A stretch of DNA of 16,625 nt from a virus (taxonomy: Duplodnaviria > Heunggongvirae > Uroviricota > Caudoviricetes): IMG/VR virus record IMGVR_UViG_2778261459_000008; one strand, written 5' to 3'. The first letter of the stretch is position 1, and each line of letters opens with the position of its first letter. Under the pieces are notes generated by a model. That model did no database searches, had not been told where the DNA came from, and saw nothing but the letters and a program-made list of their open reading frames with translations. Shown piece after piece: positions 2,384 through 16,625 of the stretch. Position numbers and translations under genes: made by a program.

Positions 2384-2406
2384 GGTCACTCCCTTTGTGA
2401 CACCTA

Positions 2407-2445
2407 TAAAAAAGGCGCTTCCCCATGCCGAGTAGCGCCTTTTTA
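2407..2445 (-). terminator. rho-independent terminator in the yhdJ-fis intergenic region (A-run, GC stem, T-run; bidirectional in form)
   Basis: AAAAAAGGCGCT-tccccatgccgagt-AGCGCCTTTTT: stem GGCGCT/AGCGCC flanked by an A-tract and a T-tract. Confidence 0.6.
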
Positions 2446-2468
2446 ATCAAGCATTTAGCTAACCTGAA

Positions 2469-2487
2469 TTAGTTCATGCCGTATTTT
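2469..2487 (-). other. fis: fis 3'-terminal fragment (last codons K-Y-G-M-N-stop only), proposed core of the island attachment site / island-chromosome junction
   Basis: Reverse complement of 2469-2487 is AAAATACGGCATGAACTAA, encoding KYGMN-stop, which matches the Fis C-terminus as I recall it. A TGA occurs in frame immediately upstream and the preceding sequence is not fis-like. Position relative to yhdJ (about 85 bp upstream) matches K-12 synteny. Confidence 0.6.
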
Positions 2488-2670: not shown

Positions 2671-3894
2671 ATGGCTGGTGGAACGAACAAATTAAGCGAT
2701 ACATCGCTTCGTAAAATGCTGGGAAGGGAGAGCCCCGGAGACAGCTTCTATGCTGATGGCGATGGGCTAAGTGTGAAGGTGTCCAGATCGGGCGTGTTGA
2801 CTTGGTATTTCACTTTCCGCATAGGTGGCCGGGAATCAACATCTCAGCGTATAAAGCTGGGTAATTATCCAGACCTTTCACTCAAAGCAGCTCGTGAGAA
2901 ACGAGAGCAGTGTCGCGCATGGCTCGCAGAGGGAAAGAATCCAAAGCACCAGTTGAGCGTTACGACTCAGGAAACGTTAAAGCCGGTGACAGTCAGGGAT
3001 GCCCTTGAATACTGGATCAGGGAATATGCCACCCATAACCGCGCTAATGTTGAAAAGCACATTGAGCAGCTCAATAAGCATATCTTTCCTTATATAGGTA
3101 CTTATCCGCTTTCTATGTGTGAAACTCGCCACTGGCTGGAATGTTTCGCCAGGGTAAGGAACGAAGCGCCTGTAGCGGCTGGCTATCTTTTGCAGATGTG
3201 TAAGCAAGCACTCAAGTTCTGCCGGGTTCATCGGTATGCGGTGAGTAACGTCCTGGACGATCTGACCATTGACGATGTTGGACGTAAACAGAATAAGCGG
3301 GACAGGGAGCATACCCGGCAAGAACTTGCTGATATATGGCGAGAATGCTCAGGCCTGAAATTTAAGCCCTACTACTCAGCTCTATTACGTCTGCTGGTGG
3401 TGTTTGGCTGCCGAACTCAGGAGCTGAGATTATCTCGCGTAACCGAATGGGATCTAAATGATTGGGTTTGGACGGTACCTAAAGAGCACAGCAAAGGTGG
3501 TGAGAAAATACTACGGCCTATTCCCGTAGATATTCGCCCATTTATCAAACAGCTTTTAGAGCAGCACCAAAGCACAGGGCTATTGCTGGGAGAGATAAAG
3601 AAACCGGAAGCTGTCAGTCAGTGGGGAAGGATGTTGTATAAGCGTCTGGGCCACTCTGAACCGTGGACGCTTCACGATTTACGCCGTACATTTTCCACGA
3701 CTCTGAACAACATGGGAATTGCTCCGCATGTTGTCGAGCAGCTTCTGGGCCATGCGCTGGGCGGTGTCATGTCCGTATATAACCGCAGTCAGTATTTACC
3801 TGAAAAGCTGGATGCACTGAATAAATGGATGCAGAGATTAGATGTTATTACCTCTGATATCTCAAATGTTACTATTCTTGAGGTCGCAAGATGA
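2671..3894 (+). CDS. int: tyrosine site-specific integrase (P4/CP4-57-like phage integrase family)
   Basis: 407-aa ORF; N-terminal DUF4102-like arm-binding region (GLSVKVSRSGVLTWYFTFRIGGRESTSQRIKLGNYPDLSLKAAREKREQCRAWLAEGKNP); C-terminal catalytic signature (HDLRRTFSTTL ... LGHALGGVMSVYNRSQY); SD GAGG 8 nt upstream of the ATG. Confidence 0.9.
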   Translation: MAGGTNKLSDTSLRKMLGRESPGDSFYADGDGLSVKVSRSGVLTWYFTFRIGGRESTSQRIKLGNYPDLSLKAAREKREQCRAWLAEGKNPKHQLSVTTQETLKPVTVRDALEYWIREYATHNRANVEKHIEQLNKHIFPYIGTYPLSMCETRHWLECFARVRNEAPVAAGYLLQMCKQALKFCRVHRYAVSNVLDDLTIDDVGRKQNKRDREHTRQELADIWRECSGLKFKPYYSALLRLLVVFGCRTQELRLSRVTEWDLNDWVWTVPKEHSKGGEKILRPIPVDIRPFIKQLLEQHQSTGLLLGEIKKPEAVSQWGRMLYKRLGHSEPWTLHDLRRTFSTTLNNMGIAPHVVEQLLGHALGGVMSVYNRSQYLPEKLDALNKWMQRLDVITSDISNVTILEVAR

Positions 3895-4848: not shown

Positions 4849-5058
4849 ATGAACAATATTAAACAATCCCAGCAGCCAGCAGAAAGAGTTATCCGTGAGG
4901 CTGAGTGCCGGCAGCTAACCGGTATTTGTCGAACCACTCGATACATGATGGAAAAAGAGGGGAGCTTTCCCGCCCGCCGCAAGCTGGGAGGTCGTGCTGT
5001 TGGTTGGCTTCTGTCTGAGGTCACAGCATGGCAGCAGAGCCGCAGCAAAGCAGCGTGA
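4849..5058 (+). CDS. alpA: AlpA-family phage/island transcriptional regulator (excisionase-like HTH)
   Basis: 69-aa product MNNIKQSQQP...CRQLTGICRTTRYMMEKEGSFPARRKLGGRAVGWLLSEVTAWQQ carries the AlpA signature (LTG.sR.T.Y....G.FP....LGGR.VGW...E...W). Start at 4849 chosen over the upstream in-frame ATG at 4813 by length similarity to AlpA; no clear SD for either. Confidence 0.8.
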   Translation: MNNIKQSQQPAERVIREAECRQLTGICRTTRYMMEKEGSFPARRKLGGRAVGWLLSEVTAWQQSRSKAA

Positions 5059-5399
5059 GGGGTGGGAAATGTCACATAAAACAAAAGCGGCCATGCAGGG
5101 CCGCCAATGTCACTACCAAAAACTTAAGCAAAGTCAGGATACCAGGGTTAATGCTAGTGGTCAAAGCCAGAGCGCTGCTGGGATTAAAGGAACTGCGGCA
5201 TTGGCGCACACCCTATTTCCCCAAATCTGGGGAGAACTGGATCATCATGCGGGGTGTGCTGCAATGCAGCATACCCCGGAGAAATCCCGTAGTTTCGACA
5301 AATACCCAGATATTGGGTGTTATGGCCTGCATAAAATCACACCTGCGGTTCTTATTCCTGTCCCCGGCTCTTCTTTAGCTCATTTGCAATGGCGGATAT

Positions 5400-6383: not shown

Positions 6384-6603
6384 CTTTTACACCTACCGCA
6401 GCAAAAAAGATTTGCTGTTACTGGCGCAAGAGGTTGCCGCGCTTCTGTCATGTGCTGCTTACCTTGCGACTACCAGAGGCGAGGAAGAGCGTATCCATGT
6501 AATGAGTTTGACGCACCTGGCTCAACGGCTTTCTGACGAGCTGGCAAACTCACTGGATATTTCTACTTTTTCAGACCCTGAATCGCGGGAGGCAAAATCA
6601 TGA
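6376..6603 (+). CDS. hypothetical small protein, 75 aa, paralogue of the previous gene
   Basis: ATG at 6376 preceded by a G-rich SD-like run; shares the pattern A..LAALL...ER...SLA.R.SD.LA.S with the 6198-6383 product; overlaps the next start (ATGA at 6600-6603). Confidence 0.5.
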   Translation: MDNFYTYRSKKDLLLLAQEVAALLSCAAYLATTRGEEERIHVMSLTHLAQRLSDELANSLDISTFSDPESREAKS

Positions 6604-6968
6604 TCAGCAATGTGAAGTTTTACGAGCTGGCTAAGCGCGTTGATCTGCTGGTTGAAAAGGTTTTGCATCTTGAGGCACAGGTTAAGTCACTCACTGATAG
6701 TCAGGGGGGGGAAATCCCTCCGGGTATGACGCCAGTAGCAACACTGGCCGCTGAATACGGTATCTCAACCAATAAGGCTGAGGAACTGGCGAAAAACACA
6801 GGGGTGATGCTGGTTAAGCTGAAATCTGGCGGGTTCGTTGCACCTGATGAAAAGTTCAGGGAAGCGGCGCGTCTGGTGCTGCGCAGCGCTAAGCGCAAAT
6901 ATGGCTCTGCGTACTGGTTCCATCCTCTGATCGGCAAATTCCAGATGAGCGGGGGCATTCCAAAATGA
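6600..6968 (+). CDS. hypothetical protein, 122 aa, translationally coupled to the helicase gene
   Basis: ATG at 6600 with GGGAGG 8 nt upstream; ATGA overlap with the downstream gene at 6965-6968; no recognisable motif. Confidence 0.55.
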   Translation: MISNVKFYELAKRVDLLVEKVLHLEAQVKSLTDSQGGEIPPGMTPVATLAAEYGISTNKAEELAKNTGVMLVKLKSGGFVAPDEKFREAARLVLRSAKRKYGSAYWFHPLIGKFQMSGGIPK

Positions 6969-8329
6969 CGGTACAACTGACAGCTGTAGAAACCGTTTCT
7001 GATGCCCTGTTCACCTGTTCGTATCTGTGGGCGCACGGCAAGCAATACAGTCGCAGCGATTTGGATAAAGCGCTCCACCAGCATAAGGACCCCACTACCC
7101 GTTACGGAAAGCTGGTGGCTCGCCTCAACCAGATAGCAGCAATGCCGTATGAGGAACTCTGTGATGCCGGATATCTCGATACGGACCGCAAACAAATGAT
7201 TACAGCGCGGCGTTCTGTGCTGGTGGAAGAGATAGGCGAAGGGGAAATGAATGCCATGCTGTCTGACGTGCAGCGCATTCACCGGGTCTTCCCTGATGCT
7301 GGTGCAAAGTTCAGGACAAAGCTGCCTCTCTCTCGCGGTTCTGAGGGCTTTGATATCCGTCAGGACTATGTCCTTAAACACTTTCTGCCAGCGCAATCAC
7401 TGTGCAGCATTTACGGTCCCAGCGGTTCGTATAAGAGTTTTCTCGCTGTATCGTGGGCCTGTCACATTGCTGCGGGTCTGCCATGGGCTGGGAAGAAGGT
7501 CACTTCCGGCGCGGTGCTGTATGTGGTTGGTGAGGGGGGCGTAGGCGTTCCCCGGCGTATAAAGGCTTGGGAGCAGGTGCACGGCATACAGGCGGACAAC
7601 CTCTGGCTGGTCAATCGTCCGGTGTTTCCTGTGCGCGAGTCAGAGGTAACGGAAGTGCTTCTGGCTGCCAGACAGATTGAAGCTGAATGTGGTGTGCCGG
7701 TTCGCATGGTGGTGATCGATACGCTGGCCCGTTGTTTTGGCGGTAACGACGAGAACGATGCTCGTGATATGGGGGCATTTATTGAAGGGTGTGACGTTAT
7801 CAAACAGAAAACGGGTGCAACGGTGCTGATAGTTCACCACTCCGGCAAAGATGAAGGGAAAGGCGCTCGCGGTTCCAGTGCTTTCCGCGCTGCGCTTGAT
7901 ACTGAATTTAACGTTAAGCGTGAAGGGGATGGAAAGGCGCTTATTCTGACCTGTACCAAGATGAAAGACGCGGAGGAGCCAGAGCGTAAAGCGTATGACC
8001 TGAGAACGGCAGAGCTTTACACCGATGAAGATGGTGAGCTTGTTTGCTCTCTGGTTGTGCACGATCAGCCGAGAGAGGCTAAAGAGGTTGAGCCTGAACT
8101 GGCCAATGTCTCCCGTCTTAGCGATAACCACCATGCATTATGGCAGGCAGTACGCAGCCGCACAGCTAAGGGGGAGCCATGCACTATCTCCGTCATTAAA
8201 GATGATCTGCGTGCAACACTGGGGACAGATAAAGTGAGAAAGTCATTCTCGCGCTGGCTGGACAAGCTGGAGAGTGAGCAAATTATTCGCATCGAGGGTG
8301 AGAACCTTTACCCGGTAACAGTCGAGTAA
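6965..8329 (+). CDS. replication initiator/helicase, RecA-like AAA_25 (RepA-like) ATPase with predicted C-terminal winged-helix DNA-binding domain
   Basis: Walker A (IYGPSGSYKSF), Walker B-like (VRMVVIDTLARCFGG), HHSGKD motif; C-terminal about 90 aa basic and helical; immediately followed by iterons. Confidence 0.8.
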   Translation: MTVQLTAVETVSDALFTCSYLWAHGKQYSRSDLDKALHQHKDPTTRYGKLVARLNQIAAMPYEELCDAGYLDTDRKQMITARRSVLVEEIGEGEMNAMLSDVQRIHRVFPDAGAKFRTKLPLSRGSEGFDIRQDYVLKHFLPAQSLCSIYGPSGSYKSFLAVSWACHIAAGLPWAGKKVTSGAVLYVVGEGGVGVPRRIKAWEQVHGIQADNLWLVNRPVFPVRESEVTEVLLAARQIEAECGVPVRMVVIDTLARCFGGNDENDARDMGAFIEGCDVIKQKTGATVLIVHHSGKDEGKGARGSSAFRAALDTEFNVKREGDGKALILTCTKMKDAEEPERKAYDLRTAELYTDEDGELVCSLVVHDQPREAKEVEPELANVSRLSDNHHALWQAVRSRTAKGEPCTISVIKDDLRATLGTDKVRKSFSRWLDKLESEQIIRIEGENLYPVTVE

Positions 8330-8330
8330 A

Positions 8331-8522
8331 TGCGGCGGTAAGTGCGGCATGTGCGGCATTTAGTATGTTTTATGACCAAATGCCGCACTTAGCCCCTGTA
8401 TACACGCGCTAAGTGCGGCATTTCACTGAAACCACCGTCATTACTGGTTTTGCATGATTTTTTGAGATAACTGGTGCGGCGCTAAGTGCGGCATTACTAA
8501 ACGCGGCACTAAATGCGGCAAG
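8331..8522. repeat. iteron array (replication origin): about 6-7 copies of TAAGTGCGGCATT-like repeats in both orientations plus an AT-rich stretch
   Basis: Copies read at about 8339-8349, 8351-8360, 8379-8393 (reverse), 8410-8424, 8484-8497 and 8510-8522, with degenerate TGCGGCGG at 8331 and CGCGGCAC at 8502; AT-rich 8440-8470. Confidence 0.75.
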
Positions 8523-8820: not shown

Positions 8821-10065
8821 TCAATAATTAAAGTGACTTTCAACTGAAAGTTGTTTGCAGCCCAATAATTTTAAAGCTTTTCGAATGTAATATAAAGCAG
8901 CGGTATTGTCGATAATGTAGCGGAAGGCTTCATTTTTATCTTGTTGTGCATCTCTTAAATTTCTTTCAAATTCTCTTTCATAATCTTCTGCGTAATATTG
9001 ATTGGATTGTCGGCCCATAATAATCAATGTGGTTAAATCTGCTAATTCTTCCTCTGAAAAGAGAGGTAGGTAAGTAGTGGTGATGCGCATTTTTAACCGT
9101 AGGTAGTCTAAAAAATCTTCTGCTCTGATATCGGATAAACTAATTCCTGAATCCTGTAGTGGGTCCAGAAATACGTTATTTTTTTTCATTACGTCTTTTA
9201 TATGTAGTGCGTACCAAGCTTTTTTAAAACGCAATAGTGTATTTTTCCCGCTATGTTTAAGTGGAAATTCAACGCCAATTAAAGATGATAGGTATCTATT
9301 TACAACAATTTTGTCGATTGCTTTTATAAGTTGTTTGTTGCTATTGAGATTAAATTTTTTCTTGATGAATTCCTTTTTTTTCACTGTAAGTGTAGTTACC
9401 CATTCATTTTTATTACCTAGAGCTTTTGAAAGCTTGATTAGATCACGGCGTGAAAATTTATCGGTATACGTACCTGTTTTATACTCATCTTTCAGATTTA
9501 GAGTGAGCTTAATTATTTCTCGCAAACCTTCCGTGAGCTTTTTGAAATAAACAACAAATCTTACAAGGTTAATGATCGGTGTTTTTTCCAAATGTGTCGC
9601 TCCGACATTGGACTCAGGGTATCTAAAAGTTTGTGCTGTGTCGTCTATAGCCACAAAGTCTAATATATAAGGCTCGATTTTTTTTGTAATGTGAAATAGT
9701 CGTATATCTGTCCTCTCAGCGACATCAATCGTGGCATCCCATAGTTTCTTGATGCTGTGGATTTTTGTCACATCAGGAACTGATATCGCCAATCCTCGGA
9801 GATCTGCCATGTCAATGAGGATAGTCTTTAGAGAAAGCTCAATTCCGTGCCTGGCAGAGTAGGCAATCGGATAAACAAGTAAATCAACTTCTCCTCTCTT
9901 GTTATTTTTGTATATATAGTCAGTAAGTATCTCTGGGGTTCTAAGGTAACCTTCAGCATAAGTTAATGAGTCAGGGAAACCATTCGTTCCGACGCAAGCA
10001 TTCAGCCAATCAAATCGACCATTGCCCAAACCAAAGGTGTTATTAAAGATTGTTTCTTTTTCCAT
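8821..10065 (-). CDS. hypothetical protein, 414 aa, AT-rich cargo gene on the opposite strand to the island backbone; candidate accessory/anti-phage function
   Basis: Uninterrupted minus-strand ORF with ATG at 10065 and AAGGA 8 nt upstream; markedly AT-rich versus flanking replication and capsid genes; no Walker, HNH, DPPY or other catalytic motif recognised. Confidence 0.7.
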   Translation of the reverse strand: MEKETIFNNTFGLGNGRFDWLNACVGTNGFPDSLTYAEGYLRTPEILTDYIYKNNKRGEVDLLVYPIAYSARHGIELSLKTILIDMADLRGLAISVPDVTKIHSIKKLWDATIDVAERTDIRLFHITKKIEPYILDFVAIDDTAQTFRYPESNVGATHLEKTPIINLVRFVVYFKKLTEGLREIIKLTLNLKDEYKTGTYTDKFSRRDLIKLSKALGNKNEWVTTLTVKKKEFIKKKFNLNSNKQLIKAIDKIVVNRYLSSLIGVEFPLKHSGKNTLLRFKKAWYALHIKDVMKKNNVFLDPLQDSGISLSDIRAEDFLDYLRLKMRITTTYLPLFSEEELADLTTLIIMGRQSNQYYAEDYEREFERNLRDAQQDKNEAFRYIIDNTAALYYIRKALKLLGCKQLSVESHFNY

Positions 10066-10312
10066 TAATCGATCCTTGCTTTGTAAATTATTTGTTCAAT
10101 GTCGTTCATTGCTGTTTGAATCAAAAAATACTCGTTTACATCAATAATTCAATATATATCTTAAAGAGTGGCACTCAGACGTGAGCCGCCACTGTTGCCG
10201 TCCGATCCCCTGCGCGATGCCGGGTTGATCTGCGAGATGCCGAGAGTGTCGGGCGGCGCTCCCTCCGTGTTGGTTTCACGTCCTGAATCTTAACCAATAC
10301 GAGAAAACCTTC

Positions 10313-11482
10313 ATGAAGAAATTAATCGAACTCCGCCAGCAAAAAACCGCCCTGAAAAACCAGATGCGATCCCTGCTGGAAAAAGCCGACAGTGAAAACC
10401 GCAGTCTGACCGATGACGAGGGCAAACAGTTTGATGAACTGCGTGCAAAAGCTGATTCCCTCGATACAGACATTTCCCGCCTCGAGTCTGTGGCTGATGA
10501 AGAACGCAGCAAGCCAGGAACGGGCATCCAGAAATTATCATCTGATGAATTGCGTAACTACATCGTAACCGGAGATGTGCGATCTCTGTCCACCAGCACT
10601 GACAGCGGCAGGGATGGCGGATATACCGTAATTCCTGAGCTTGATCGCGAAGTCATGCGCCAGCTACAGGATGACAGTGTTATGCGCGTGATCGCGACCG
10701 TGAAGACTGCAAAATCAAATGAGTTTCAGAAACTGGTTTCCACTGGCGGCGCAACTGTAGGACGAGGCACAGAAGGCAGCGCACGCAGTGAAACCAACAC
10801 CCCGAAAATTGAACGCGTAACCATCAAGCTGAATCCGATCTACGCCTACCCGAAAACCACGCAGGAAATCCTGGATTTTTCAGAGGTGGATATTCTGGGC
10901 TGGTTATCCTCCGAAATTGCCGACACGTTCGCCAGCACCGAAGAGGATGATTTTGTTAATGGCGACGGTAACGGCAAGCCGAAAGGCTTCATGGCTTACA
11001 CCCGTGCGGCGACCAGTGACAAAACCCGCGCTTTTGGCACCATTGAAAAAATGGTAGCGGCAAGTGGAACCGCCATTACAGCGGACGAACTGATCGACAT
11101 TCTCTACAAGCTGAAAGCGAAATACCGCAAAAATGCCGTCTGGGTGATGAACTCGGGCACGGCAGGGACACTACAGAAGCTGAAAAATGAGAACGGCGAT
11201 TATATCTGGCGCGACAGCCTTAAAGAAGGTGCGCCGGATATGTTGCTTGGTCGTCCTGTTTACTGCCTGGAGTCCATGCCGGACATCGGCGCAGGAAAAG
11301 CACCGCTAGCGGTTGGCGATTTCAGTCGTGGTTATTTCATCGTTGATCATGTAACAGGGATTCGCACCCGACCGGACAACATTACTGAACCCGGATTCTA
11401 CAAGGTCCACACGGATAAATATCTGGGCGGTGGTGTGGTGGATTCAAACGCCATCAAAATTCTGGAAATGAAAGCTGGCTAG
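10313..11482 (+). CDS. major capsid protein, HK97 fold, with N-terminal coiled-coil delta (scaffold) domain
   Basis: 389 aa; N-terminal about 70 aa is a charged coiled coil (LIELRQQKTALKNQMRSLLEKADSENRSLTDDEGKQFDELRAKADSLD); FVNGDGNGKPKGF motif typical of HK97-family capsids; strong terminator immediately downstream. Confidence 0.85.
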   Translation: MKKLIELRQQKTALKNQMRSLLEKADSENRSLTDDEGKQFDELRAKADSLDTDISRLESVADEERSKPGTGIQKLSSDELRNYIVTGDVRSLSTSTDSGRDGGYTVIPELDREVMRQLQDDSVMRVIATVKTAKSNEFQKLVSTGGATVGRGTEGSARSETNTPKIERVTIKLNPIYAYPKTTQEILDFSEVDILGWLSSEIADTFASTEEDDFVNGDGNGKPKGFMAYTRAATSDKTRAFGTIEKMVAASGTAITADELIDILYKLKAKYRKNAVWVMNSGTAGTLQKLKNENGDYIWRDSLKEGAPDMLLGRPVYCLESMPDIGAGKAPLAVGDFSRGYFIVDHVTGIRTRPDNITEPGFYKVHTDKYLGGGVVDSNAIKILEMKAG

Positions 11483-11494
11483 TCATGAGTAAGG

Positions 11495-11517
11495 AGGAGG
11501 CTGCGGCCTCCTTTTTC
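11495..11517 (+). terminator. rho-independent terminator directly after the capsid gene
   Basis: AGGAGGC-tgcg-GCCTCCT followed by TTTTT. Confidence 0.65.
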
Positions 11518-11536
11518 AGCTTTATGGAGTACACCG

Positions 11537-12097
11537 ATGAAAAACACCGATTTTGAAATCCGCACATCTGAACTGACCGCCAGCAATAAAAAGCTGGTGG
11601 GGTATGCCGTTCGCTGGAACAGCCTTTCAGAAATTATCTGGGACGAATTCCGCGAACAGTTCACGCCGGGGGCTTTTGCTGACTATCTGGCGGCGGGTAA
11701 TGATGTGCGCTGCCTGTATGAGCATGACTATACCCAACTGCTGGGGCGCACCAAATCCGGCACTCTGGTACTGACTGAGGATAACACCGGGTTACGTTTT
11801 GAGCTGACACCGCCGGATACCCAGCTTGGAAAAGATGTGCTTACGCTGGTGGAGCGTGGCGACATTACAGGAATGAGCTTTGGTTTTCGCGCATTATGCG
11901 AGGAGTGGAGTATCGCGCAAAAACCGTATCTGCGTACCGTAACCGCCGCTGAACTCCGTGAAATCACAATAACGTCGATGCCTGCTTATCCAGAATCTGG
12001 CGTGGAGATTGCCCGCCGTTCGTTGTTTGCACAGCACCCTGAATTACGTCCGACAGGAAATAATCGTCATCGTTGGTCTGAGTTGGCGGGGTTGTGA
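11537..12097 (+). CDS. prohead maturation protease (HK97 family, S78/U35-like)
   Basis: 186 aa; N-terminal ...KKLVGYAVRWNSLSEII...FTPGAF pattern typical of HK97 prohead proteases; GGAG 7 nt upstream of the ATG. Confidence 0.8.
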   Translation: MKNTDFEIRTSELTASNKKLVGYAVRWNSLSEIIWDEFREQFTPGAFADYLAAGNDVRCLYEHDYTQLLGRTKSGTLVLTEDNTGLRFELTPPDTQLGKDVLTLVERGDITGMSFGFRALCEEWSIAQKPYLRTVTAAELREITITSMPAYPESGVEIARRSLFAQHPELRPTGNNRHRWSELAGL

Positions 12098-12098
12098 T

Positions 12099-13313
12099 AT
12101 GTGGTGGCCTTTTAGTCGTAAAAAAAGCGAGCAGCGTAACCTGTCCATTGATGATTTTCTGGCGCTGTCCGGCGTACCGAATACCGGATCCGGAGAATAT
12201 GTTTCTGCCGGGACGGCTGAATCATTGCCTGCAGTGATGAACGCGGTTTCTGTCATCGCTGAGGCGGTGGCCACGATGCCGTGTTATCTGTATCTGGTAC
12301 GTAATGACAAGGGCAGGGAGGCGCGGGAATGGCTGGACAGTCACCCGGTAGATATTCTGCTGAATGAGCAGCCTAATTCGTGCCAGACACCTTACCAGTT
12401 TAAACGCACAATGATGCGTCACTGCCTGCTGAACGGTAACGCCTATGCGGTTATTGAGTGGGGGCGGGACGGGCAGCCCAAATCACTTCATCCTTATGCA
12501 CCGGGTTGTGTTGTACCGGAACGCACAGGCGCACACAAATACCGATATACCATCACCGAACCCTATACAGGAACGGTGCGCACGTATTTACAGGAAGAAG
12601 TTCTGCATCTCCGCTATGCCTCGGATGATGGCTTTCTGGGGCGCTCCCCCGTCACGATTTGCCGTGAGGCACTTGGGCTTGGCCTTGCTCAACAGCGCCA
12701 CGGAGCCAGCATTATGAAAGATGGCATGATGGCGGCAGGGATTATCACGTCAGGCGAATGGCTGGACGGCGTGAAAGGTAAACAGGCATTAGATGCTCTG
12801 GAACGCTACAAGGGGGCGAAAAATGCCGGAAAAACGCCAATCCTTGAAGGGGGCATGGATTACAAGCAACTGGGAATGAGTAACCAGGATGCGGAATGGC
12901 TGGCCTCCCGTCGCTTCTCCATTGAAGACATCGCCCGCATGTTCAACGTATCGCCTATTTTTCTGCAGGAATACAGCAACAGCACCTACAGCAATTTCAG
13001 CGAGGCAAGCCGCGCGTTTCTGACCATGACAATGCGCCCATGGCTGGCGAACTTCGAACAGCAAATCAAGGCCGCTTTGCTGGTGGCTTCTCCCGTACCT
13101 GGTACCCGTTATCTGGTTGAGTTTGATTCAGCCGATTTATTACGCGCCACACCCACCGAACGTTATGCCACGTATGAGAAAGGGATTAAGAACGGGATCA
13201 TGAATCCGAACGAAGCCCGTGAGCGTGAGGGTATGCCGCCGCGTGAAGGTGGTGACGAGTTCAGCCAGGCATGGAAGCAGACTGTGGAAATTAAAGGTGA
13301 AAAAGATGAGTGA
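12099..13313 (+). CDS. portal protein (HK97 family)
   Basis: 404 aa from the ATG at 12099 (2 nt after the protease stop); conserved portal block RRFSIEDIARMFNVSPIFL; the ORF track's upstream extension to 12009 overlaps the protease gene and is unlikely. Confidence 0.85.
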   Translation: MWWPFSRKKSEQRNLSIDDFLALSGVPNTGSGEYVSAGTAESLPAVMNAVSVIAEAVATMPCYLYLVRNDKGREAREWLDSHPVDILLNEQPNSCQTPYQFKRTMMRHCLLNGNAYAVIEWGRDGQPKSLHPYAPGCVVPERTGAHKYRYTITEPYTGTVRTYLQEEVLHLRYASDDGFLGRSPVTICREALGLGLAQQRHGASIMKDGMMAAGIITSGEWLDGVKGKQALDALERYKGAKNAGKTPILEGGMDYKQLGMSNQDAEWLASRRFSIEDIARMFNVSPIFLQEYSNSTYSNFSEASRAFLTMTMRPWLANFEQQIKAALLVASPVPGTRYLVEFDSADLLRATPTERYATYEKGIKNGIMNPNEAREREGMPPREGGDEFSQAWKQTVEIKGEKDE

Positions 13314-13608
13314 ATCCAGAATTACGCTTAATGAAGTAATGGCCCATCTTCGCCTTGATGATGATTTTTATGGTGAGGTTGAACTTCTGCAAATATATAC
13401 CGATGCGGCGCTGGAAGCCTGCCAGAAGCATATCGGGAAACGTTTTGAAGACGGCCTGGAATTTACCCCGGCAATACGTGTTGGTTGCCTGATGTACATC
13501 GCTTTTCTGTACGAGAACCGGGAAGCGGTTTCACCAGTTGAGCACTCGGAACTGCCTATGGCTATTTCTGCGCTCTGGTCGGTTTATCGTGATGTGGGGG
13601 TGTACTGA
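13306..13608 (+). CDS. head-tail connector / DNA-packaging protein (gp6-like)
   Basis: 100 aa from the ATG at 13306, overlapping the portal stop; N-terminal ITLNEVMAHLRLDDDFYGEVELLQIYTDAALEA pattern typical of gp6-like connectors. Confidence 0.7.
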   Translation: MSESRITLNEVMAHLRLDDDFYGEVELLQIYTDAALEACQKHIGKRFEDGLEFTPAIRVGCLMYIAFLYENREAVSPVEHSELPMAISALWSVYRDVGVY

Positions 13609-14048
13609 TGCCGTGGCAACCATTAAGGCGATGCACTGAGCCGGGCTGTAATAAGCGCGTGAAGTCCGGCAAGTGTGAAGAGCACAGGCGGGCTGCATGG
13701 CGTGCAGAGGATGCCAGACGGGGACACCGCCGCGCACGTGGGTATTCCCGACAGTGGGACAAATACCGCGCCCTGTACCTGAGCAAAAACCCGTTATGCG
13801 TGCGTTGTCTGGCTAAGGGTATTTATACACCAGCTCTTGTGGTGGATCACATCATTCCCATCAATGGCGGCGGTGATGTTCTCTTCTGGCCTGAGTGGAA
13901 TCACCAGGCATTGTGCCAGACGTGCCACAACCGTAAGACGACACGGGAAGATCCAGCCACGAAAGCAAACCGTAAAGCGGGCATGTATCGCGAGCAGGAA
14001 GAACGGGCGGCACACCGTAACGACTGGATGTATGGCGATGATGACTGA
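13608..14048 (+). CDS. HNH endonuclease (packaging-associated)
   Basis: 146 aa; CxxC ... DHIIP ... H ... CQTCHNRK zinc-finger HNH signature; start overlaps the connector stop (TGATG). Confidence 0.85.
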   Translation: MPWQPLRRCTEPGCNKRVKSGKCEEHRRAAWRAEDARRGHRRARGYSRQWDKYRALYLSKNPLCVRCLAKGIYTPALVVDHIIPINGGGDVLFWPEWNHQALCQTCHNRKTTREDPATKANRKAGMYREQEERAAHRNDWMYGDDD

Positions 14049-14217
14049 ACAGGAGCAAACCAGGCTGATACGTGGACTGATAAGGCAGCGTGACACATGG
14101 AAGACACAGGAGACAGAGCACAAAGCCAACAGGACAGGGCGCACAAAACGCACCACAGCGAAGCGATTAACCGACCGTGACCGCGAGGTCATGGAATGTT
14201 TTCGCAATCGCTGGTGA
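14041..14217 (+). CDS. possible small basic protein, 58 aa, overlapping the HNH stop; uncertain
   Basis: ATG at 14041 in an ATGA-type overlap with the HNH stop; product MTEQEQTRLIRGLIRQRDTWKTQETEHKANRTGRTKRTTAKRLTDRDREVMECFRNRW; no clear SD. Confidence 0.3.
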   Translation: MTEQEQTRLIRGLIRQRDTWKTQETEHKANRTGRTKRTTAKRLTDRDREVMECFRNRW

Positions 14218-14336
14218 GGCCGTCAGAGGGGGTGGGGGTGGTTTTCAGGACGAAACCGTCCCTGCCGGACACCGACCGCCCCCTCAAATTTTTGTGCACG
14301 GTAATTTTTTTGAAAATAATTGGGCGAAAAAAGAAC

Positions 14337-14693
14337 ATGGCAAGACCACCAAAAGCCCCCGCTTACCTGGATGAAATCGCGGTCAGGCAGTGGAAGGAAA
14401 AATCGCGCCAGCTTTCCGGGCGGGAAGACCTTACCCCCGCCGACTGGAGCAATCTGGAACTGTATTGTGTTAACTACTCCATATACCGCAAAGCCGTCGA
14501 AGACCTTGCGACGCGCGGGTTCAGCATTGTTAACAGTCAGGGCAGCGAGAGCAGAAACCCCGCACTGAGCGCAAAGGCTGACGCAGAAAGAATAATGATC
14601 AAAATGGCTTCTTTGCTGGGTTTTGACCCGGTAAGCCGTCGCAGAAATCCACCGGAAACAGAGGAAGAGGACGAACTTGACCGCCTGGCATGA
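14337..14693 (+). CDS. terminase small subunit (P27-family-like)
   Basis: 118 aa from the ATG at 14337 (MARPPKAPAYLDEIAVRQWKE...), an N-terminus typical of P27-type TerS; lies directly upstream of and overlaps TerL. Confidence 0.75.
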   Translation: MARPPKAPAYLDEIAVRQWKEKSRQLSGREDLTPADWSNLELYCVNYSIYRKAVEDLATRGFSIVNSQGSESRNPALSAKADAERIMIKMASLLGFDPVSRRRNPPETEEEDELDRLA

Positions 14694-16338
14694 GTACGCA
14701 GAAGGCGTAAAAAACGGCAAAATTACGGCCTGTAAACGACTGAAACAGGCCGTTAAACGGTATTTTTCTGACCTTGAAAACTCCCTTTACACGTTCGATC
14801 CGGAGGTCGTGGAGCGGTTTATTGCCTTTTCCCGGGTGTGTCCGCACGTAAAAGGCGCAATGCGCGGTAGTCCCATTGAACTGGAGCCGTGGCAGCAGTT
14901 CGCCTTTGCCTGCATCCTGGGCTTTAAGGTTAAGGCCACCGGACGGCGCAAATACACCAGCGCATTCATTGAAGTACCGCGAAAAAATGCCAAATCCACG
15001 GTCGCCGCTATCCTGGCTAACTGGTTTCTGGTTATGGAAAACGGGCAGCAGGATATTTACACCGCCGCCGTGAGTCGTGATCAGGCGCGGATCGTGTTTG
15101 ATGATGCGCGTCAGATGTGCCTTTTATCCCGACCGTTACGAAAGCGGGTAAATATTCAGGCGCACAAGGTGATACACCCGAAAACCAACAGCCTGTTAAA
15201 GCCACTGGCAGCAAAAGCGGCAACCATTGAGGGGACAAACCCGAGTCTTGCCATTGTGGATGAATATCACCTGCACCCAGACAACGGGGTTTATTCCGCA
15301 CTTGAGCTGGGGATGGGGGCGCGTCCGGAGGGGCTGTTATTTGCCATCACCACATCGGGGAGCAACGTTGTTTCAGCCTGTAAACAACACTATGACTATT
15401 GCTGTCAGATACTGGATGGTGAAGAGATGAACGAATCCATGTTCGTTCTGATTTACGAGCTGGATGATGAAAGCGAGGTTGACGATCCGGCGATGTGGAT
15501 AAAGGCGAATCCAAATATCGATGTTTCCGTCGATCGTGAAAAACTGGCCTCAACCATCCAGAAAGCGCGGGGTATTCCGTCGCAGTGGGTGGAAATGCTC
15601 ACCAAGCGATTCAATATCTGGTGTCAGGGGGCTACGCCGTGGATGGGTAACGGTGCATGGGCGGAGTGCGCCGGAACGTTCGCGGAGGCGGATTTATACG
15701 GGCAGGAGTGCTACGCGGGGCTGGACTTATCATCAACCAGCGATATTTCCAGCGTGTGCTATGCCTTTCCGGTCGGTAAAAAGATTATGCTGGTTTCCCG
15801 TCACTATCTGCCGGAATTTCAGCTACAGAACCCCGCCAATAAAAACCGCGCCATCTATCGCCAGTGGGTAAAGGCGGGCTGGATACGCACAACACCGGGT
15901 GACTGCATTGATTATGACCGTATCCGTGATGACATCATGGCGGATGCAGAGAATTTCAATATCAGGCTGGTGGGCTTCGATACATGGAACGCCACGCACC
16001 TGAGGACGCAGCTACAGGGGGCAGGATTTGAGGTGGAGCCGTTCCCGCAAACATACCTTCGTTTCAGTCCGGCGGCGAAATCGTTCGAAGTTTTTGTTAA
16101 CCGGAAGGTGATTGTGCATCGTGGTGATCCGGTGCTGGCCTGGTCAATGAGTAATGTTGTGATGCAGAGTGACGCGAACGCCAATATCAAGCCGAACAAG
16201 AAAAAATCATCCAACAAGATAGACCCGAGCGTTGCGGCGCTGATGGCGTTTGGCACATTCCAGGCAGAGCATGAGGAATTTGCATTTGATATGAGCGACA
16301 GCCACAAAGAGCGACTTGCGGCGTTTGATGGGGTATGA
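14677..16338 (+). CDS. terminase large subunit (ATPase/nuclease)
   Basis: 553 aa; apparent TTG start at 14677 with AAGAGG 6 nt upstream (no in-frame ATG/GTG until about residue 61); Walker A-like VPRKNAKST; acidic nuclease-domain motifs; 16-nt overlap with TerS. Confidence 0.85.
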   Translation: MTAWHEYAEGVKNGKITACKRLKQAVKRYFSDLENSLYTFDPEVVERFIAFSRVCPHVKGAMRGSPIELEPWQQFAFACILGFKVKATGRRKYTSAFIEVPRKNAKSTVAAILANWFLVMENGQQDIYTAAVSRDQARIVFDDARQMCLLSRPLRKRVNIQAHKVIHPKTNSLLKPLAAKAATIEGTNPSLAIVDEYHLHPDNGVYSALELGMGARPEGLLFAITTSGSNVVSACKQHYDYCCQILDGEEMNESMFVLIYELDDESEVDDPAMWIKANPNIDVSVDREKLASTIQKARGIPSQWVEMLTKRFNIWCQGATPWMGNGAWAECAGTFAEADLYGQECYAGLDLSSTSDISSVCYAFPVGKKIMLVSRHYLPEFQLQNPANKNRAIYRQWVKAGWIRTTPGDCIDYDRIRDDIMADAENFNIRLVGFDTWNATHLRTQLQGAGFEVEPFPQTYLRFSPAAKSFEVFVNRKVIVHRGDPVLAWSMSNVVMQSDANANIKPNKKKSSNKIDPSVAALMAFGTFQAEHEEFAFDMSDSHKERLAAFDGV

Positions 16339-16625
16339 CGAGAATGACTGAAACTGATCTACTAAAAATAATTCGCCGCATTACCGGAATCAGTCAGCAG
16401 CCTGACGAACAGGCTACACAGCCGGACAGCGTGATAGCCGAAAATTACGCGCGTGTGGTGGCTGAGGTGATGCGCCGTGACGGTATTGAGCTTAACGGCG
16501 TGGATATGCGCAACATACGAACCAGAGTCCTTGAGTTGCTGGCATACCGTCGCCGTTCTCAACAACGGAGGGAGAGCGCGAAAAATACTTACCAGTGGAA
16601 GAAGCCGGAACGACTGCGGCGGTAA
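16335..16625 (+). CDS. hypothetical protein, 96 aa, downstream of TerL (possibly a head-completion/packaging accessory protein)
   Basis: ATG at 16335 overlapping the TerL stop (ATGA); stop at 16623-16625; no recognisable motif. Confidence 0.5.
   Translation: MTRMTETDLLKIIRRITGISQQPDEQATQPDSVIAENYARVVAEVMRRDGIELNGVDMRNIRTRVLELLAYRRRSQQRRESAKNTYQWKKPERLRR

What the first reader, a model, noticed from the sequence alone, without database searches (positions are those of the whole stretch)
10313..16338. Non-canonical order of the head module, with a strong terminator right after the capsid gene
HK97-like phages usually run TerS-TerL-portal-protease-capsid; here capsid-protease-portal-connector precede HNH-TerS-TerL, and the capsid gene is followed by a stable hairpin with a T-tract (11495-11517). 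This suggests modular reshuffling and differential expression of capsid versus the downstream genes.
Basis: partly seen in the sequence, partly recalled or inferred. Interest (0 to 1): 0.5.

Follow-up and report, generated by a model that had tools for sequence, protein, structure and literature searches.

The report
Capsid-forming phage satellite packaging operon
This is the capsid-and-packaging operon of a capsid-forming phage satellite (cf-PICI) in the E. coli chromosome; its capsid-first gene order is already the published hallmark of that family, and the hairpin after the capsid gene is a conserved but ordinary terminator-type signal also seen in phage HK97.

Summary
Window 10313-16338 encodes capsid, prohead protease, portal, head-tail adaptor, HNH, TerS and TerL on one strand. 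A GC hairpin plus T5 (11491-11516) sits 13 nt after the capsid stop.

The locus is a ~14.9-kb capsid-forming phage-inducible chromosomal island (cf-PICI): integrase, AlpA, RepA with iterons, 82-bp att repeats, no tail or lysis genes. Alqurainy et al. already describe "capsid-protease-portal-head connectors, then hnh-terS-terL" as the conserved organisation of proteobacterial cf-PICIs.

I found that order in every complete related locus examined. These include EcCIEDL933 and KpCIDSM30104. The nearest true phages (HK97, ST64B, phiP27) keep the canonical order. So the order is a family trait, not reshuffling at this locus.

The hairpin is not chance. A strict terminator motif follows the capsid gene in 63 of 71 non-identical genome modules, and occurs at any other module position in at most 2 of 71. 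Loops vary, and a few loci carry unrelated stems at the same spot.

It is not special either: HK97's own record annotates a putative terminator after gp5. Partial termination that favours capsid mRNA is plausible but untested. Low novelty. The side observations (structured capsid leader, Hc1-less neck variant) are more interesting than the finding itself.

The parts
2406..2487 (.). attL: left copy of an 82-bp perfect direct repeat bounding the island. The right copy lies about 720 nt beyond the window end, next to fis.
   Evidence: the repeat finder on L001: copies at L001 4407-4488 and 19345-19426, spacing 14,938 bp. Window position = L001 position - 2001.
2671..3894 (+). Tyrosine integrase of the island
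   Evidence: Pfam Arm-DNA-bind_3, Phage_int_M, Phage_integrase
4849..5058 (+). AlpA-family regulator/excisionase
   Evidence: Pfam PF05930 Phage_AlpA 5.9e-16; PHROG 2790
6965..8329 (+). RepA-like replicative helicase (replication module)
   Evidence: Pfam AAA_25; PHROGs helicase/primase families; RefSeq 'helicase RepA family'
8331..8521 (.). Four iteron-like repeats (GCGGCGCTAAGTGCGGCAT type) just after repA; putative replication origin
   Evidence: the repeat finder families D2/D3 at L001 10332-10522. The origin function is inferred.
10135..10162 (+). Sigma-70-like promoter candidate of the packaging operon (TTTACA-16-TATCTT)
   Evidence: Consensus scan. Key hexamer positions are invariant in 26 enterobacterial cf-PICI leaders (alignment A2). 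Promoter activity is not tested.
10168..10192 (+). Near-invariant palindrome/hairpin GTGGCACTCAGACGTGAGCCGCCAC at the predicted transcript start
   Evidence: Alignment A2 and RNAalifold: two pairs change on both sides in 5 of 26 sequences. The motif lies 90-129 nt upstream of a cf-PICI capsid gene in 78 of 80 IMG/VR loci.
10197..10257 (+). Leader hairpin 2: variable interior with a covarying closing stem of about 9-10 bp, followed by a pyrimidine-rich tract
   Evidence: RNAalifold on A2: columns 122-131/174-183 hold many compensatory pairs
10272..10309 (+). Leader hairpin 3 (GGTTTCACGT...ACGAGAAAACC) ending 3 nt before the capsid ATG; no obvious Shine-Dalgarno
   Evidence: Sequence and conservation in A2. 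Only the inner pairs were predicted by RNAalifold; the outer pairing is read by eye.
10313..11482 (+). HK97-fold major capsid protein (389 aa)
   Evidence: Pfam Phage_capsid 2e-71. 75-76% identical to the capsids of KpCIDSM30104/vB_KppS-Ant, at most 37% to true phages.
11491..11516 (+). Intrinsic-terminator-type hairpin: core stem 11496-11501/11506-11511, loop TGCG, T5 11512-11516
   Evidence: Sequence; fold -17.2 kcal/mol, z -3.57. Position conserved in 63 of 71 genome loci and 61 of 74 IMG/VR loci.
11537..12097 (+). Prohead serine protease (S78); GGAG Shine-Dalgarno at 11526-11529
   Evidence: Pfam Peptidase_S78 5.7e-46; sequence
12099..13313 (+). Portal protein
   Evidence: Pfam Phage_portal 6.4e-93. 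The frame reads to TGA at 13311-13313. The RefSeq table lists an end equivalent to 13280.
13306..13608 (+). Head-tail adaptor Ad1 (gp6-like). It is the only neck protein; no head-closure Hc1 gene is present.
   Evidence: Pfam Phage_connect_1; PHROG 40 Ad1 7.9e-30. tblastn with two Hc1 proteins finds nothing in the window.
13608..14048 (+). HNH endonuclease (packaging accessory)
   Evidence: Pfam HNH 8.8e-10
14032..14217 (+). Small conserved ORF (PHROG 3173). By position it is the counterpart of EcCIEDL933 hypothetical gene 1792.
   Evidence: PHROG 3173 6.3e-27. Homologs sit at the same position in many loci. The paper reports that transfer is severely affected in the 1792 mutant.
14272..14294 (.). 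cos-like sequence CGACCGCCCCCTCAAATTTTT between the small ORF and terS
   Evidence: Resembles the annotated cos-site region of phiP27 (sequences compared). The cos function is inferred.
14337..14693 (+). Small terminase, P27 family
   Evidence: Pfam Terminase_4 4.2e-23; RefSeq annotation
14677..16338 (+). Large terminase
   Evidence: Pfam TerL_ATPase and TerL_nuclease
16344..16625 (+). Conserved 93-aa ORF after terL (PHROG 1561), function unknown
   Evidence: PHROG 1561 9.2e-54

Best explanation
The region is the packaging operon of a cf-PICI, a phage satellite that builds its own small capsids and takes only tails from a helper phage. The island is about 14.9 kb and is integrated between yhdJ and fis in E. 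coli.

The order capsid-protease-portal-adaptor-HNH-TerS-TerL is the fixed, family-wide arrangement of proteobacterial cf-PICIs, not a local rearrangement.

The hairpin plus T-tract after the capsid gene is a conserved intrinsic-terminator-type element of the kind also found after the capsid gene of HK97-like phages. The inferred mechanism runs as follows. Transcription starts at a conserved promoter and leader upstream of the capsid gene. Part of the polymerases stop at the hairpin, giving a short capsid-only mRNA with a protective 3' hairpin. The rest read through into the tightly packed or overlapping downstream genes.

This would give more capsid message than message for the low-copy parts, in line with need: EcCIEDL933's T=4 capsid implies about 235 capsid subunits against 12 portal subunits and catalytic amounts of terminase (subunit counts are textbook arithmetic, not taken from a tool result).

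Shown here: element identity, gene order, presence and positional conservation of the hairpin. Inferred: promoter use, partial termination, the effect on stoichiometry.
For: **Identity as a cf-PICI**
- Integrase, AlpA and RepA-like helicase are present.
- 82-bp att repeats lie 14,938 bp apart.
- No tail or lysis family was found among the ORFs scanned.
- The capsid is 75-76% identical to that of KpCIDSM30104 (L077, K. pneumoniae ATCC 13883; I equate ATCC 13883 with DSM 30104 from culture-collection knowledge) and vB_KppS-Ant, and at most 37% to true phages.

**Order**
- It is published as the conserved organisation of proteobacterial cf-PICIs.
- It is present in every locus with enough DNA among 80 genome loci, in 55 complete IMG/VR loci, and in EcCIEDL933.
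- HK97, ST64B and phiP27 have the canonical order.

**Hairpin**
- Fold is -17.2 kcal/mol, z -3.57.
- A strict terminator motif follows the capsid gene in 63 of 71 non-identical genome modules, against at most 2 of 71 at any other position. In IMG/VR it is 61 of 74.
- About 23 different loops sit on a preserved GC stem. Variant or unrelated stems occur at the same place: window GGAGGC/GCCTCC, L017, L030, L062, and GGGCGTTCCTG...CAGGAGCGCTC-T6.
- It is present in EcCIEDL933 and KpCIDSM30104.

**Read-through is required**
- Only 9-26 nt separate the hairpin from the protease start, too little for a promoter.
- The paper reports that mutating each packaging-module gene abolished EcCIEDL933 transfer, except gene 1792, where transfer was severely affected. 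The downstream genes must therefore be expressed.
Against: - There are no expression data of any kind; termination efficiency is unknown.
- The stem is mostly the same GGGGC/GCCCC sequence, so classical covariation support is thin. The case rests on position, loop turnover and a few replaced stems.
- Many relatives have short or interrupted T-tracts such as TTTCTG or TTTGAGG, so some copies may be weak terminators or only stability elements.
- The capsid gene has no recognisable Shine-Dalgarno and is preceded by a hairpin, so high capsid output cannot be assumed from transcription alone.
- HK97 has the same hairpin although its capsid gene is not promoter-proximal. The hairpin therefore does not explain the gene order.
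Confidence: 0.6

Rival explanations
1. Antitermination lock. The operon is transcribed by a polymerase made terminator-resistant at the conserved promoter-proximal palindrome or leader (by AlpA, a helper-phage Q-like factor, or the leader RNA itself). The hairpin after the capsid gene, together with hairpins in the leader, then serves to silence leaky transcription in the uninduced island rather than to set stoichiometry during induction.
For: - A near-invariant palindrome lies at the predicted transcript start, followed by a structured, covarying leader.
- EcCIEDL933 has a different leader, with a hairpin plus T8 abutting the capsid ATG.
- The island encodes AlpA, and alpA is required for EcCIEDL933 induction.
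- P. aeruginosa AlpA is a Q-like antiterminator that lets RNA polymerase bypass intrinsic terminators (PMC7969949, PMC9371919).
- As I recall, HK97-type late operons with similar hairpins are read by Q-modified polymerase.
Against: - Nothing here shows that PICI AlpA or any helper factor acts at this promoter.
- The palindrome could be an ordinary operator.
- Hairpin 2 of the window's leader is followed by a C-rich tract, not a T-rich one, so it is not a typical terminator.
- I did not test whether P. aeruginosa AlpA and this AlpA are homologous.
Confidence: 0.2
2. Pure RNA-stability or processing element. The hairpin does not terminate transcription to a useful degree. It protects the capsid cistron from 3'-to-5' exonucleases after endonucleolytic cleavage of the polycistronic mRNA, so capsid mRNA outlives the rest.
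For: - Many copies have weak or interrupted T-tracts, or T-tracts that can pair with an upstream A-run.
- phiP27 has a strong hairpin after its capsid gene without a 3' T-tract.
- The outcome (surplus capsid mRNA) would be the same, so conservation cannot separate this from partial termination.
Against: - Most copies, including the window's, do have at least 4 T in the 6 bases after a GC stem (63 of 71 and 61 of 74). That is the signature of intrinsic terminators, not merely of stabilisers.
- There are no data on processing sites.
Confidence: 0.15
3. The capsid-first order is a recent, locus-specific modular reshuffle, with a fortuitous hairpin (a literal reading of the first reader's proposal).
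For: The order does differ from HK97, ST64B and phiP27.
Against: - The same order occurs in all related loci across three bacterial orders and in the published prototypes.
- The hairpin is position-specific and conserved.
Confidence: 0.02

Closest known systems
Proteobacterial capsid-forming PICIs: EcCIEDL933 (prototype) and KpCIDSM30104 / EcCIGN02175 (Alqurainy et al., bioRxiv 10.1101/2022.09.08.507074; bioRxiv 10.1101/2025.02.11.637232)
   Same: Same element type and size class, with int and alpA. Same packaging-gene order capsid-protease-portal-neck-HNH-small ORF-TerS-TerL. Capsid 75% identical to KpCIDSM30104 (L077). Same hairpin after the capsid gene. Same leader motif as KpCIDSM30104.
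   Different: Replication module is a RepA-type helicase, whereas EcCIEDL933 has a DUF927 primase. The att site is yhdJ-fis rather than roxA-phoQ. A minus-strand DUF3775 cargo gene lies upstream of the capsid operon. Only one neck gene (Ad1) is present; the Hc1 head-closure gene found in both prototypes is absent. The leader differs from that of EcCIEDL933.
Head module of phage HK97 and relatives (ST64B, phiP27)
   Same: Homologous HK97-fold capsid, S78 protease, portal, Ad1 adaptor, HNH, TerS and TerL. The cos-like sequence resembles that of phiP27. A GC hairpin lies directly after the capsid gene; in the HK97 record it is annotated 'putative terminator' at 5192-5213.
   Different: Phage order is (HNH)-TerS-TerL-portal-protease-capsid-Ad1-Hc1, followed by tail genes. 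In cf-PICIs capsid/protease/portal are in the reverse order on the same strand, Hc1 precedes Ad1 where present, the packaging enzymes come last, and there are no tail genes. Capsid identity is at most 37%.
Partial terminator after a major capsid gene, e.g. T7 T-phi downstream of gene 10 (textbook knowledge, not tested here)
   Same: A stem-loop terminator immediately after the most abundantly needed structural gene. Read-through is needed to express downstream genes.
   Different: T7 uses its own RNA polymerase and an experimentally characterised terminator. Here the polymerase, efficiency and effect are only inferred.

Membership tests
cf-PICI (capsid-forming phage-inducible chromosomal island), criteria from 10.1101/2025.02.11.637232 Methods | Size about 10-18 kb, bounded by att repeats | tested here: met
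   82-bp perfect direct repeats 14,938 bp apart in the identical E. coli HZ13 locus
cf-PICI | Integrase plus regulation module (AlpA in Gram-negative PICIs) plus replication module | tested here: met
   Integrase domains; Phage_AlpA 5.9e-16; RepA-like helicase with adjacent iterons
cf-PICI | Own packaging module: capsid, protease, portal, HNH, TerS, TerL | tested here: met
   Pfam hits for all six
cf-PICI | Both neck proteins (adaptor and connector, i.e. Ad1 and Hc1) | tested here: not met
   Only Ad1 is present. No Hc1 by tblastn, and there is no room for one, because the portal stop overlaps the Ad1 start. The original description allows 'all, or most' components, and the Hc1-less type recurs in 8 genome loci and 20 of 61 IMG/VR loci. 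I therefore treat this as a sub-variant, not an exclusion.
cf-PICI | Conserved proteobacterial order: capsid-protease-portal-connectors, then hnh-terS-terL | tested here: met
cf-PICI | No lysis genes and no tail module | tested here: met
   No tail or lysis family among the Pfam/PHROG hits of the island ORFs scanned, and none in the RefSeq annotation. The small unannotated ORFs are too short to encode a tail module.
cf-PICI | Capsid groups with cf-PICI capsids and is distant from phage capsids | tested here: met
   58-76% identity to 80 island loci; at most 37% to the best true phages
cf-PICI | Helper-phage induction, small (T=4) island-encoded capsids, use of helper tails | not testable with these tools
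   Requires induction, transfer and EM experiments, as
Intrinsic (factor-independent) terminator | GC-rich stem, short loop, run of T immediately 3', on the sense strand after a gene | tested here: met
   GGAGGC-TGCG-GCCTCC-TTTTT, 13 nt after the capsid stop
Intrinsic (factor-independent) terminator | RNA 3' ends and reduced downstream transcription in vivo or in vitro | not testable with these tools
   No transcript data are available
Canonical HK97-like phage head module | Order TerS-TerL-portal-protease-capsid-Ad1-Hc1, followed by tail genes | tested here: not met
   Order differs and tail genes are absent

The most novel reading that the evidence does not exclude
The capsid-first order, the conserved promoter with its structured about 140-nt leader (near-invariant palindrome at the transcript start, covarying hairpin, hairpin masking the ribosome-binding region) and the post-capsid terminator together form one dedicated expression programme of cf-PICIs. 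In this reading an antitermination or attenuation switch is triggered on induction, and a built-in transcriptional step-down sets the capsid-to-portal ratio needed for exclusive T=4 assembly. The leader would then be a new cis-regulatory RNA/DNA element specific to these satellites. It has no Rfam match and is found only upstream of cf-PICI capsid genes.
Probability: 0.15. Interest if true: 0.55.

Novelty: new member of a known kind. Interest (0 to 1): 0.22.

Why it matters
As written, the finding matters little. The unusual order is the known signature of proteobacterial cf-PICIs, and the terminator is a feature shared with HK97. The practical value lies in correct classification: this is a satellite, not a rearranged prophage. 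Several database 'phages' with this order (vB_KppS-Ant, Pmp8) have the same satellite organisation.

If the hairpin does act as a partial terminator, it would give a simple account of how a 15-kb satellite with one operon makes hundreds of capsid subunits per dozen portal subunits. The conserved leader would then be the place to look for the still-unknown signal that switches on cf-PICI capsid production.

Tried and rejected
- **Built-in terminator scan.** It did not list the hairpin, probably because the maximal stem uses up the T-run. I replaced it with my own scan that trims stems to G-C closing pairs.
- **Rfam at E<=1 over the whole window.** Only two sub-threshold hits, both outside the operon (STnc40-like at 2408-2475, SAM-SAH at 6517-6557). 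Nothing for the hairpin or the leader.
- **MAFFT alignment of 45 hairpins (A3).** Differences in loop length put the 5' arms out of register, so I made no formal pair counts. The argument uses the arm/loop table instead.
- **Locating cos from the ends of the vB_KppS-Ant record.** That record lacks about 67 nt present in the identical KpCIDSM30104 locus, so its ends are not reliable. I used similarity to the annotated phiP27 cos region instead.
- **Looking for a hidden Hc1 gene.** tblastn with two Hc1 proteins found nothing in the window. The 93-aa ORF after terL is not a substitute, because homologs also occur in islands that have Hc1.
- **A simple Hc1 deletion.** Rejected: compared with E. 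coli E423, 467 nt are replaced by 125 nt that encode a different portal tail and a different Ad1 N-terminus.
- **The leader as a shared element of helper-phage late operons.** blastn against 50,697 phage records hit only three records, all among the cf-PICI-type capsid hits.
- **Literature.** No paper in the library combines cf-PICI with a relevant use of 'terminator'. Neither cf-PICI paper uses the word.

Full report
**What is in the window**

The window is E. coli chromosome. It is 100% identical to E. coli HZ13 and PD7 over 10000-16625. The host genes acrS, yhdU and yhdJ are followed by an inserted element.

In the HZ13 record the element is bounded by an 82-bp perfect direct repeat. The copies lie at window 2406-2487 and about 720 nt past the window end, next to fis, 14,938 bp apart.

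The element encodes:
- a tyrosine integrase (2671-3894);
- a DUF6387 protein;
- an AlpA-family regulator (4849-5058, Pfam 5.9e-16);
- an Icd-like protein and small ORFs;
- a RepA-like helicase (6965-8329), followed by iteron-like repeats (8331-8521);
- a low-GC minus-strand DUF3775 gene (8821-10065);
- the block described in the finding.

On the + strand lie:
- capsid (10313-11482, Phage_capsid 2e-71);
- S78 prohead protease (11537-12097);
- portal (12099 to the stop at 13311-13313);
- an Ad1-type head-tail adaptor (13306-13608);
- HNH (13608-14048);
- a small conserved ORF (14032-14217);
- P27-family TerS (14337-14693);
- TerL (14677-16338).

Thirteen nucleotides after the capsid stop lies GGAGGC-TGCG-GCCTCC-TTTTT (11496-11516), extendable to 11 pairs from 11491. 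It folds at -17.2 kcal/mol with z = -3.57 against shuffles.

The generic terminator scan did not list it, probably because its longest stem uses up the T-run. A scan that trims stems to a G-C closing pair finds it as the only terminator-like site in the window's module.

**What the element is**

The nearest 'phage' records by capsid protein are small 15-16.5-kb entries: vB_KppS-Ant at 75%, Pasteurella Pmp8 at 61%. They show the same gene order and have an integrase and a primase but no tail module. The next hits are true phages at no more than 37% identity.

The literature identifies this architecture as the capsid-forming PICIs. EcCIEDL933 was shown by mutagenesis to encode its own small capsids and packaging machinery and to need only helper-phage tails.

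[quoted passage not shown] The non-canonical order is therefore already described as a family hallmark.

**Synteny survey**

A scan of one genome per species with an alignment of three capsids returned 80 loci from Enterobacterales, Pasteurellales and Gilliamella/Frischella, with capsid identity of 58-76%. In every locus with enough DNA, tblastn places capsid, protease, portal, adaptor, HNH, TerS and TerL in the same order and on the same strand.

One of these loci, L077, is K. pneumoniae ATCC 13883. I equate that strain with DSM 30104 from culture-collection knowledge, which makes L077 the experimentally studied KpCIDSM30104. I also fetched EcCIEDL933 itself from the EDL933 chromosome. It has the same order with two neck genes.

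A further 80 IMG/VR loci, found through a leader motif, gave the same order. Fifty-five were complete and the rest were truncated.

In contrast, HK97, ST64B and phiP27 run (HNH)-TerS-TerL-portal-protease-capsid-Ad1(-Hc1) and then tail genes.

The relatives are satellites rather than phages. The rearrangement relative to phages is real but ancient and fixed. It cannot be a simple inversion or circular permutation:
- capsid, protease and portal are in reversed order on the same strand;
- where Hc1 exists, it precedes Ad1, the opposite of HK97.

**The hairpin**

The capsid-protease spacer is 32-58 nt in almost all loci and nearly always holds a GC hairpin followed by T's. The consensus is AGGGGC, a loop of 3-8 nt, then GCCCCTTTTT.

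With a strict definition (G-C closed stem, at most -8 kcal/mol, at least 4 T in the next 6 bases), results were:

| Set | Motif after the capsid gene | Motif at any other module position |
|---|---|---|
| Non-identical complete genome modules | 63 of 71 | at most 2 of 71 |
| IMG/VR loci | 61 of 74 | not scanned |

Among the genome loci about 23 different loop sequences sit on the preserved stem. Some loci have altered but still paired stems:
- the window's GGAGGC/GCCTCC;
- CGGGGC/GCCCCG in L017;
- extended stems in L003, L030, L031 and L034.

A few loci have unrelated hairpins at the same place:
- a 16-bp stem plus T7 in L062;
- GGGCGTTCCTG-TGATCT-CAGGAGCGCTC-T6 in IMG/VR loci.

Exceptions are two insect-associated bacteria with no spacer or a very short one (L021, L050), and loci where an extra ORF has been inserted after the hairpin (L025, which I read, and four IMG/VR loci with a 583-nt spacer that I did not read). 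EcCIEDL933 has AAGGGGC-TTAAAA-GCCCCTT-TAGTGTTTT.

Because the core stem is mostly identical in sequence, formal covariation is weak. MAFFT could not keep the arms in register. The support comes from position, loop turnover and stem replacement.

**The hairpin is not peculiar to the capsid-first order**

The HK97 GenBank record annotates a 'putative terminator' at 5192-5213, directly after gp5. Its sequence, GGGCGGG-GAAA-CCCGCCC-TTTT, folds at -21 kcal/mol.

ST64B and phiP27 also have strong GC hairpins right after their capsid genes. The phiP27 hairpin lacks a 3' T-tract.

A hairpin after the major capsid gene therefore looks like a shared trait of these HK97-like head modules that stayed attached to the capsid gene when the order changed.

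**Most likely mechanism (inferred)**

Upstream of the capsid gene there is a promoter-like site, TTTACA-16-TATCTT (10135-10162). Its key positions are invariant in 26 enterobacterial relatives. Because the preceding gene is on the opposite strand, the operon needs its own promoter.

Downstream of the hairpin only 20 nt remain before the protease start, and 9-26 nt in relatives. That is too little for a promoter. Yet mutating each EcCIEDL933 packaging-module gene abolished transfer, except gene 1792, where transfer was severely affected. Transcription must therefore read through the hairpin.

The downstream genes abut or overlap:
- protease to portal: 1-nt gap;
- portal and Ad1: 8-nt overlap;
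- Ad1 and HNH: 1-nt overlap;
- TerS and TerL: 17-nt overlap.

No other terminator-like site is conserved in the module. The simplest reading is a single operon with one internal partial terminator. This also provides a protective 3' hairpin for a capsid-only mRNA, enriching capsid message relative to portal, neck and terminase messages.

That fits the need for about 235 capsid subunits per 12 portal subunits. The T=4 symmetry is reported for EcCIEDL933; the subunit arithmetic is textbook. None of this is shown by data here.

**Rivals**

1. *Antitermination lock.* The near-invariant palindrome at the transcript start (10168-10192) and the structured leader could load an antitermination factor. 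In that case the hairpin mainly blocks leaky expression. Three points bear on this:
   - EcCIEDL933 has a hairpin plus T8 abutting its capsid ATG;
   - the island encodes AlpA;
   - P. aeruginosa AlpA is a Q-like antiterminator (PMC7969949, PMC9371919).
   The link is speculative, and I did not test homology between the two AlpA proteins.
2. *Pure stability or processing element.* Weak T-tracts in many copies allow this reading.
3. *Local reshuffle with a chance hairpin.* This is excluded by the survey.

**Comparison and novelty**

The locus passes the published cf-PICI criteria for size, integrase, regulation, replication, packaging genes, order, and absence of tail and lysis genes. The one exception is that it has a single neck gene.

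It is an apparently undescribed member of a known family. Its gene order is already published.

In the searchable literature, the conservation of the post-capsid hairpin across cf-PICIs is not mentioned. Both cf-PICI papers have zero occurrences of 'terminator', and the one paper that holds both words concerns a different system. This is a modest addition, since the same feature is annotated in HK97.

**Side observations**

*(a) The capsid leader.* In enterobacterial cf-PICIs of the KpCIDSM30104 type it is highly structured:
- an almost invariant palindrome, GTGRCACTCNGRCGKGAGCCGYCAC, with two pairs changed on both sides in 5 of 26 sequences;
- a variable hairpin whose closing stem of about 10 bp covaries extensively;
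- a hairpin ending 3-8 nt before the ATG, where a Shine-Dalgarno would be expected.

It has no Rfam match. It occurs in at least 120 IMG/VR contigs, and in 78 of 80 fetched it lies 90-129 nt upstream of a cf-PICI capsid gene. Among 50,697 phage records it occurs only in three, all among the cf-PICI-type capsid hits.

*(b) The Hc1-less neck variant.*
- This island lacks the Hc1 head-closure gene.
- Relative to the 97%-identical E. coli E423 island, 467 nt are replaced by 125 nt that encode a different portal tail and a different Ad1 N-terminus.
- The Hc1-less type also occurs in Leclercia, Pantoea, Erwinia, Serratia, Gilliamella and Yersinia loci, and in 20 of 61 IMG/VR loci.
- In E. coli, 133 genomes hold a place covering at least 80% of the 10100-13700 query, and nearly all rows listed at 92% identity or more are annotated without a head-closure protein.
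- Neck proteins set tail compatibility in cf-PICIs, so this variant may have different helper requirements.

**Verdict**

- The phenomenon is largely already known.
- The hairpin is real, conserved and probably functional, but ordinary.
- Interest is low. A modest upside lies in the leader-plus-terminator expression programme and the Hc1-less variant.

Noticed in passing
window 10135-10312 (alignment A2; L002, L004-L022, L066-L079, L089-L168): Conserved promoter-like site and structured leader of about 140 nt upstream of the cf-PICI capsid gene. It has a near-invariant palindrome GTGGCACTCAGACGTGAGCCGCCAC (10168-10192), a hairpin with a strongly covarying closing stem (10197-10257), and a hairpin ending 3 nt before the ATG with no clear Shine-Dalgarno. 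There is no Rfam match. It is found only upstream of cf-PICI capsid genes.
   Followed up: partly
window 13281-13405; L088 7113-7579: The island has no head-closure (Hc1) gene. Compared with the 97%-identical E. coli E423 island, 467 nt (portal tail, Hc1, Ad1 N-terminus) are replaced by 125 nt. The one-neck-gene type recurs in 8 genome loci from six other genera and in 20 of 61 IMG/VR loci.
   Followed up: partly
L087 8130-8199 (EcCIEDL933): The prototype EcCIEDL933 has a different capsid leader: a hairpin GTCCTGG...CCAGGAC followed by T8 that runs straight into the capsid ATG. That is a terminator-like element at the entry to the packaging operon.
   Followed up: no
L087 11176-11807; L084 5219-5883: Where both neck genes exist in cf-PICIs, Hc1 precedes Ad1, the opposite of HK97 (Ad1 then Hc1). 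Two separate blocks of the head module are therefore reversed in order without a change of strand.
   Followed up: no
window 12099-13313: The RefSeq feature table lists the portal CDS ending at the equivalent of 13280, but the reading frame has no stop there and continues to TGA at 13311-13313. 13280 is also where homology to the E423 island breaks.
   Followed up: partly
window 2406-2487 and L001 19345-19426: The 82-bp att repeat contains a GC hairpin flanked by A and T runs (AAAAAAGGCGC...GCGCCTTTTT), probably a host terminator duplicated by integration next to fis. It gives a sub-threshold Rfam STnc40 hit.
   Followed up: no
window 8331-8521: Four iteron-like repeats immediately after the RepA-like helicase gene; likely the island's replication origin.
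   Followed up: no
window 8821-10065 (- strand): A 414-aa protein with a weak DUF3775 match lies on the opposite strand. Its GC content is about 0.35, against about 0.52 for the rest of the island. It sits in the variable slot before the packaging operon, where the cf-PICI paper expects immune systems. It has no PHROG match.
   Followed up: no
L025 10177-11041; four IMG/VR loci with a 583-nt capsid-protease spacer: L025 has an extra ORF of about 265 aa inserted between the post-capsid hairpin and the protease gene, and the hairpin stays next to the capsid gene. Four IMG/VR loci have a 583-nt spacer at the same place, which I did not read.
   Followed up: partly
window 14272-14294: The sequence CGACCGCCCCCTCAAATTTTT between the small ORF and terS resembles the annotated cos region of phiP27 and is conserved in EcCIEDL933 and KpCIDSM30104. 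It is the likely cos site. The 165-aa ORF that starts at 14196 would span it, so the 118-aa TerS start at 14337 is more plausible.
   Followed up: partly
phage records LR881103.1, OR544139.1, OR850982.1, PQ569648.1: Two records deposited as phages (vB_KppS-Ant, Pmp8) have the cf-PICI organisation. S.Kent 1-2-1 is a 3.8-kb fragment with the same capsid. The 106.5-kb Klebsiella phage P12620-1 record carries a cf-PICI-type leader and capsid at its very end, which suggests a chimeric assembly.
   Followed up: no
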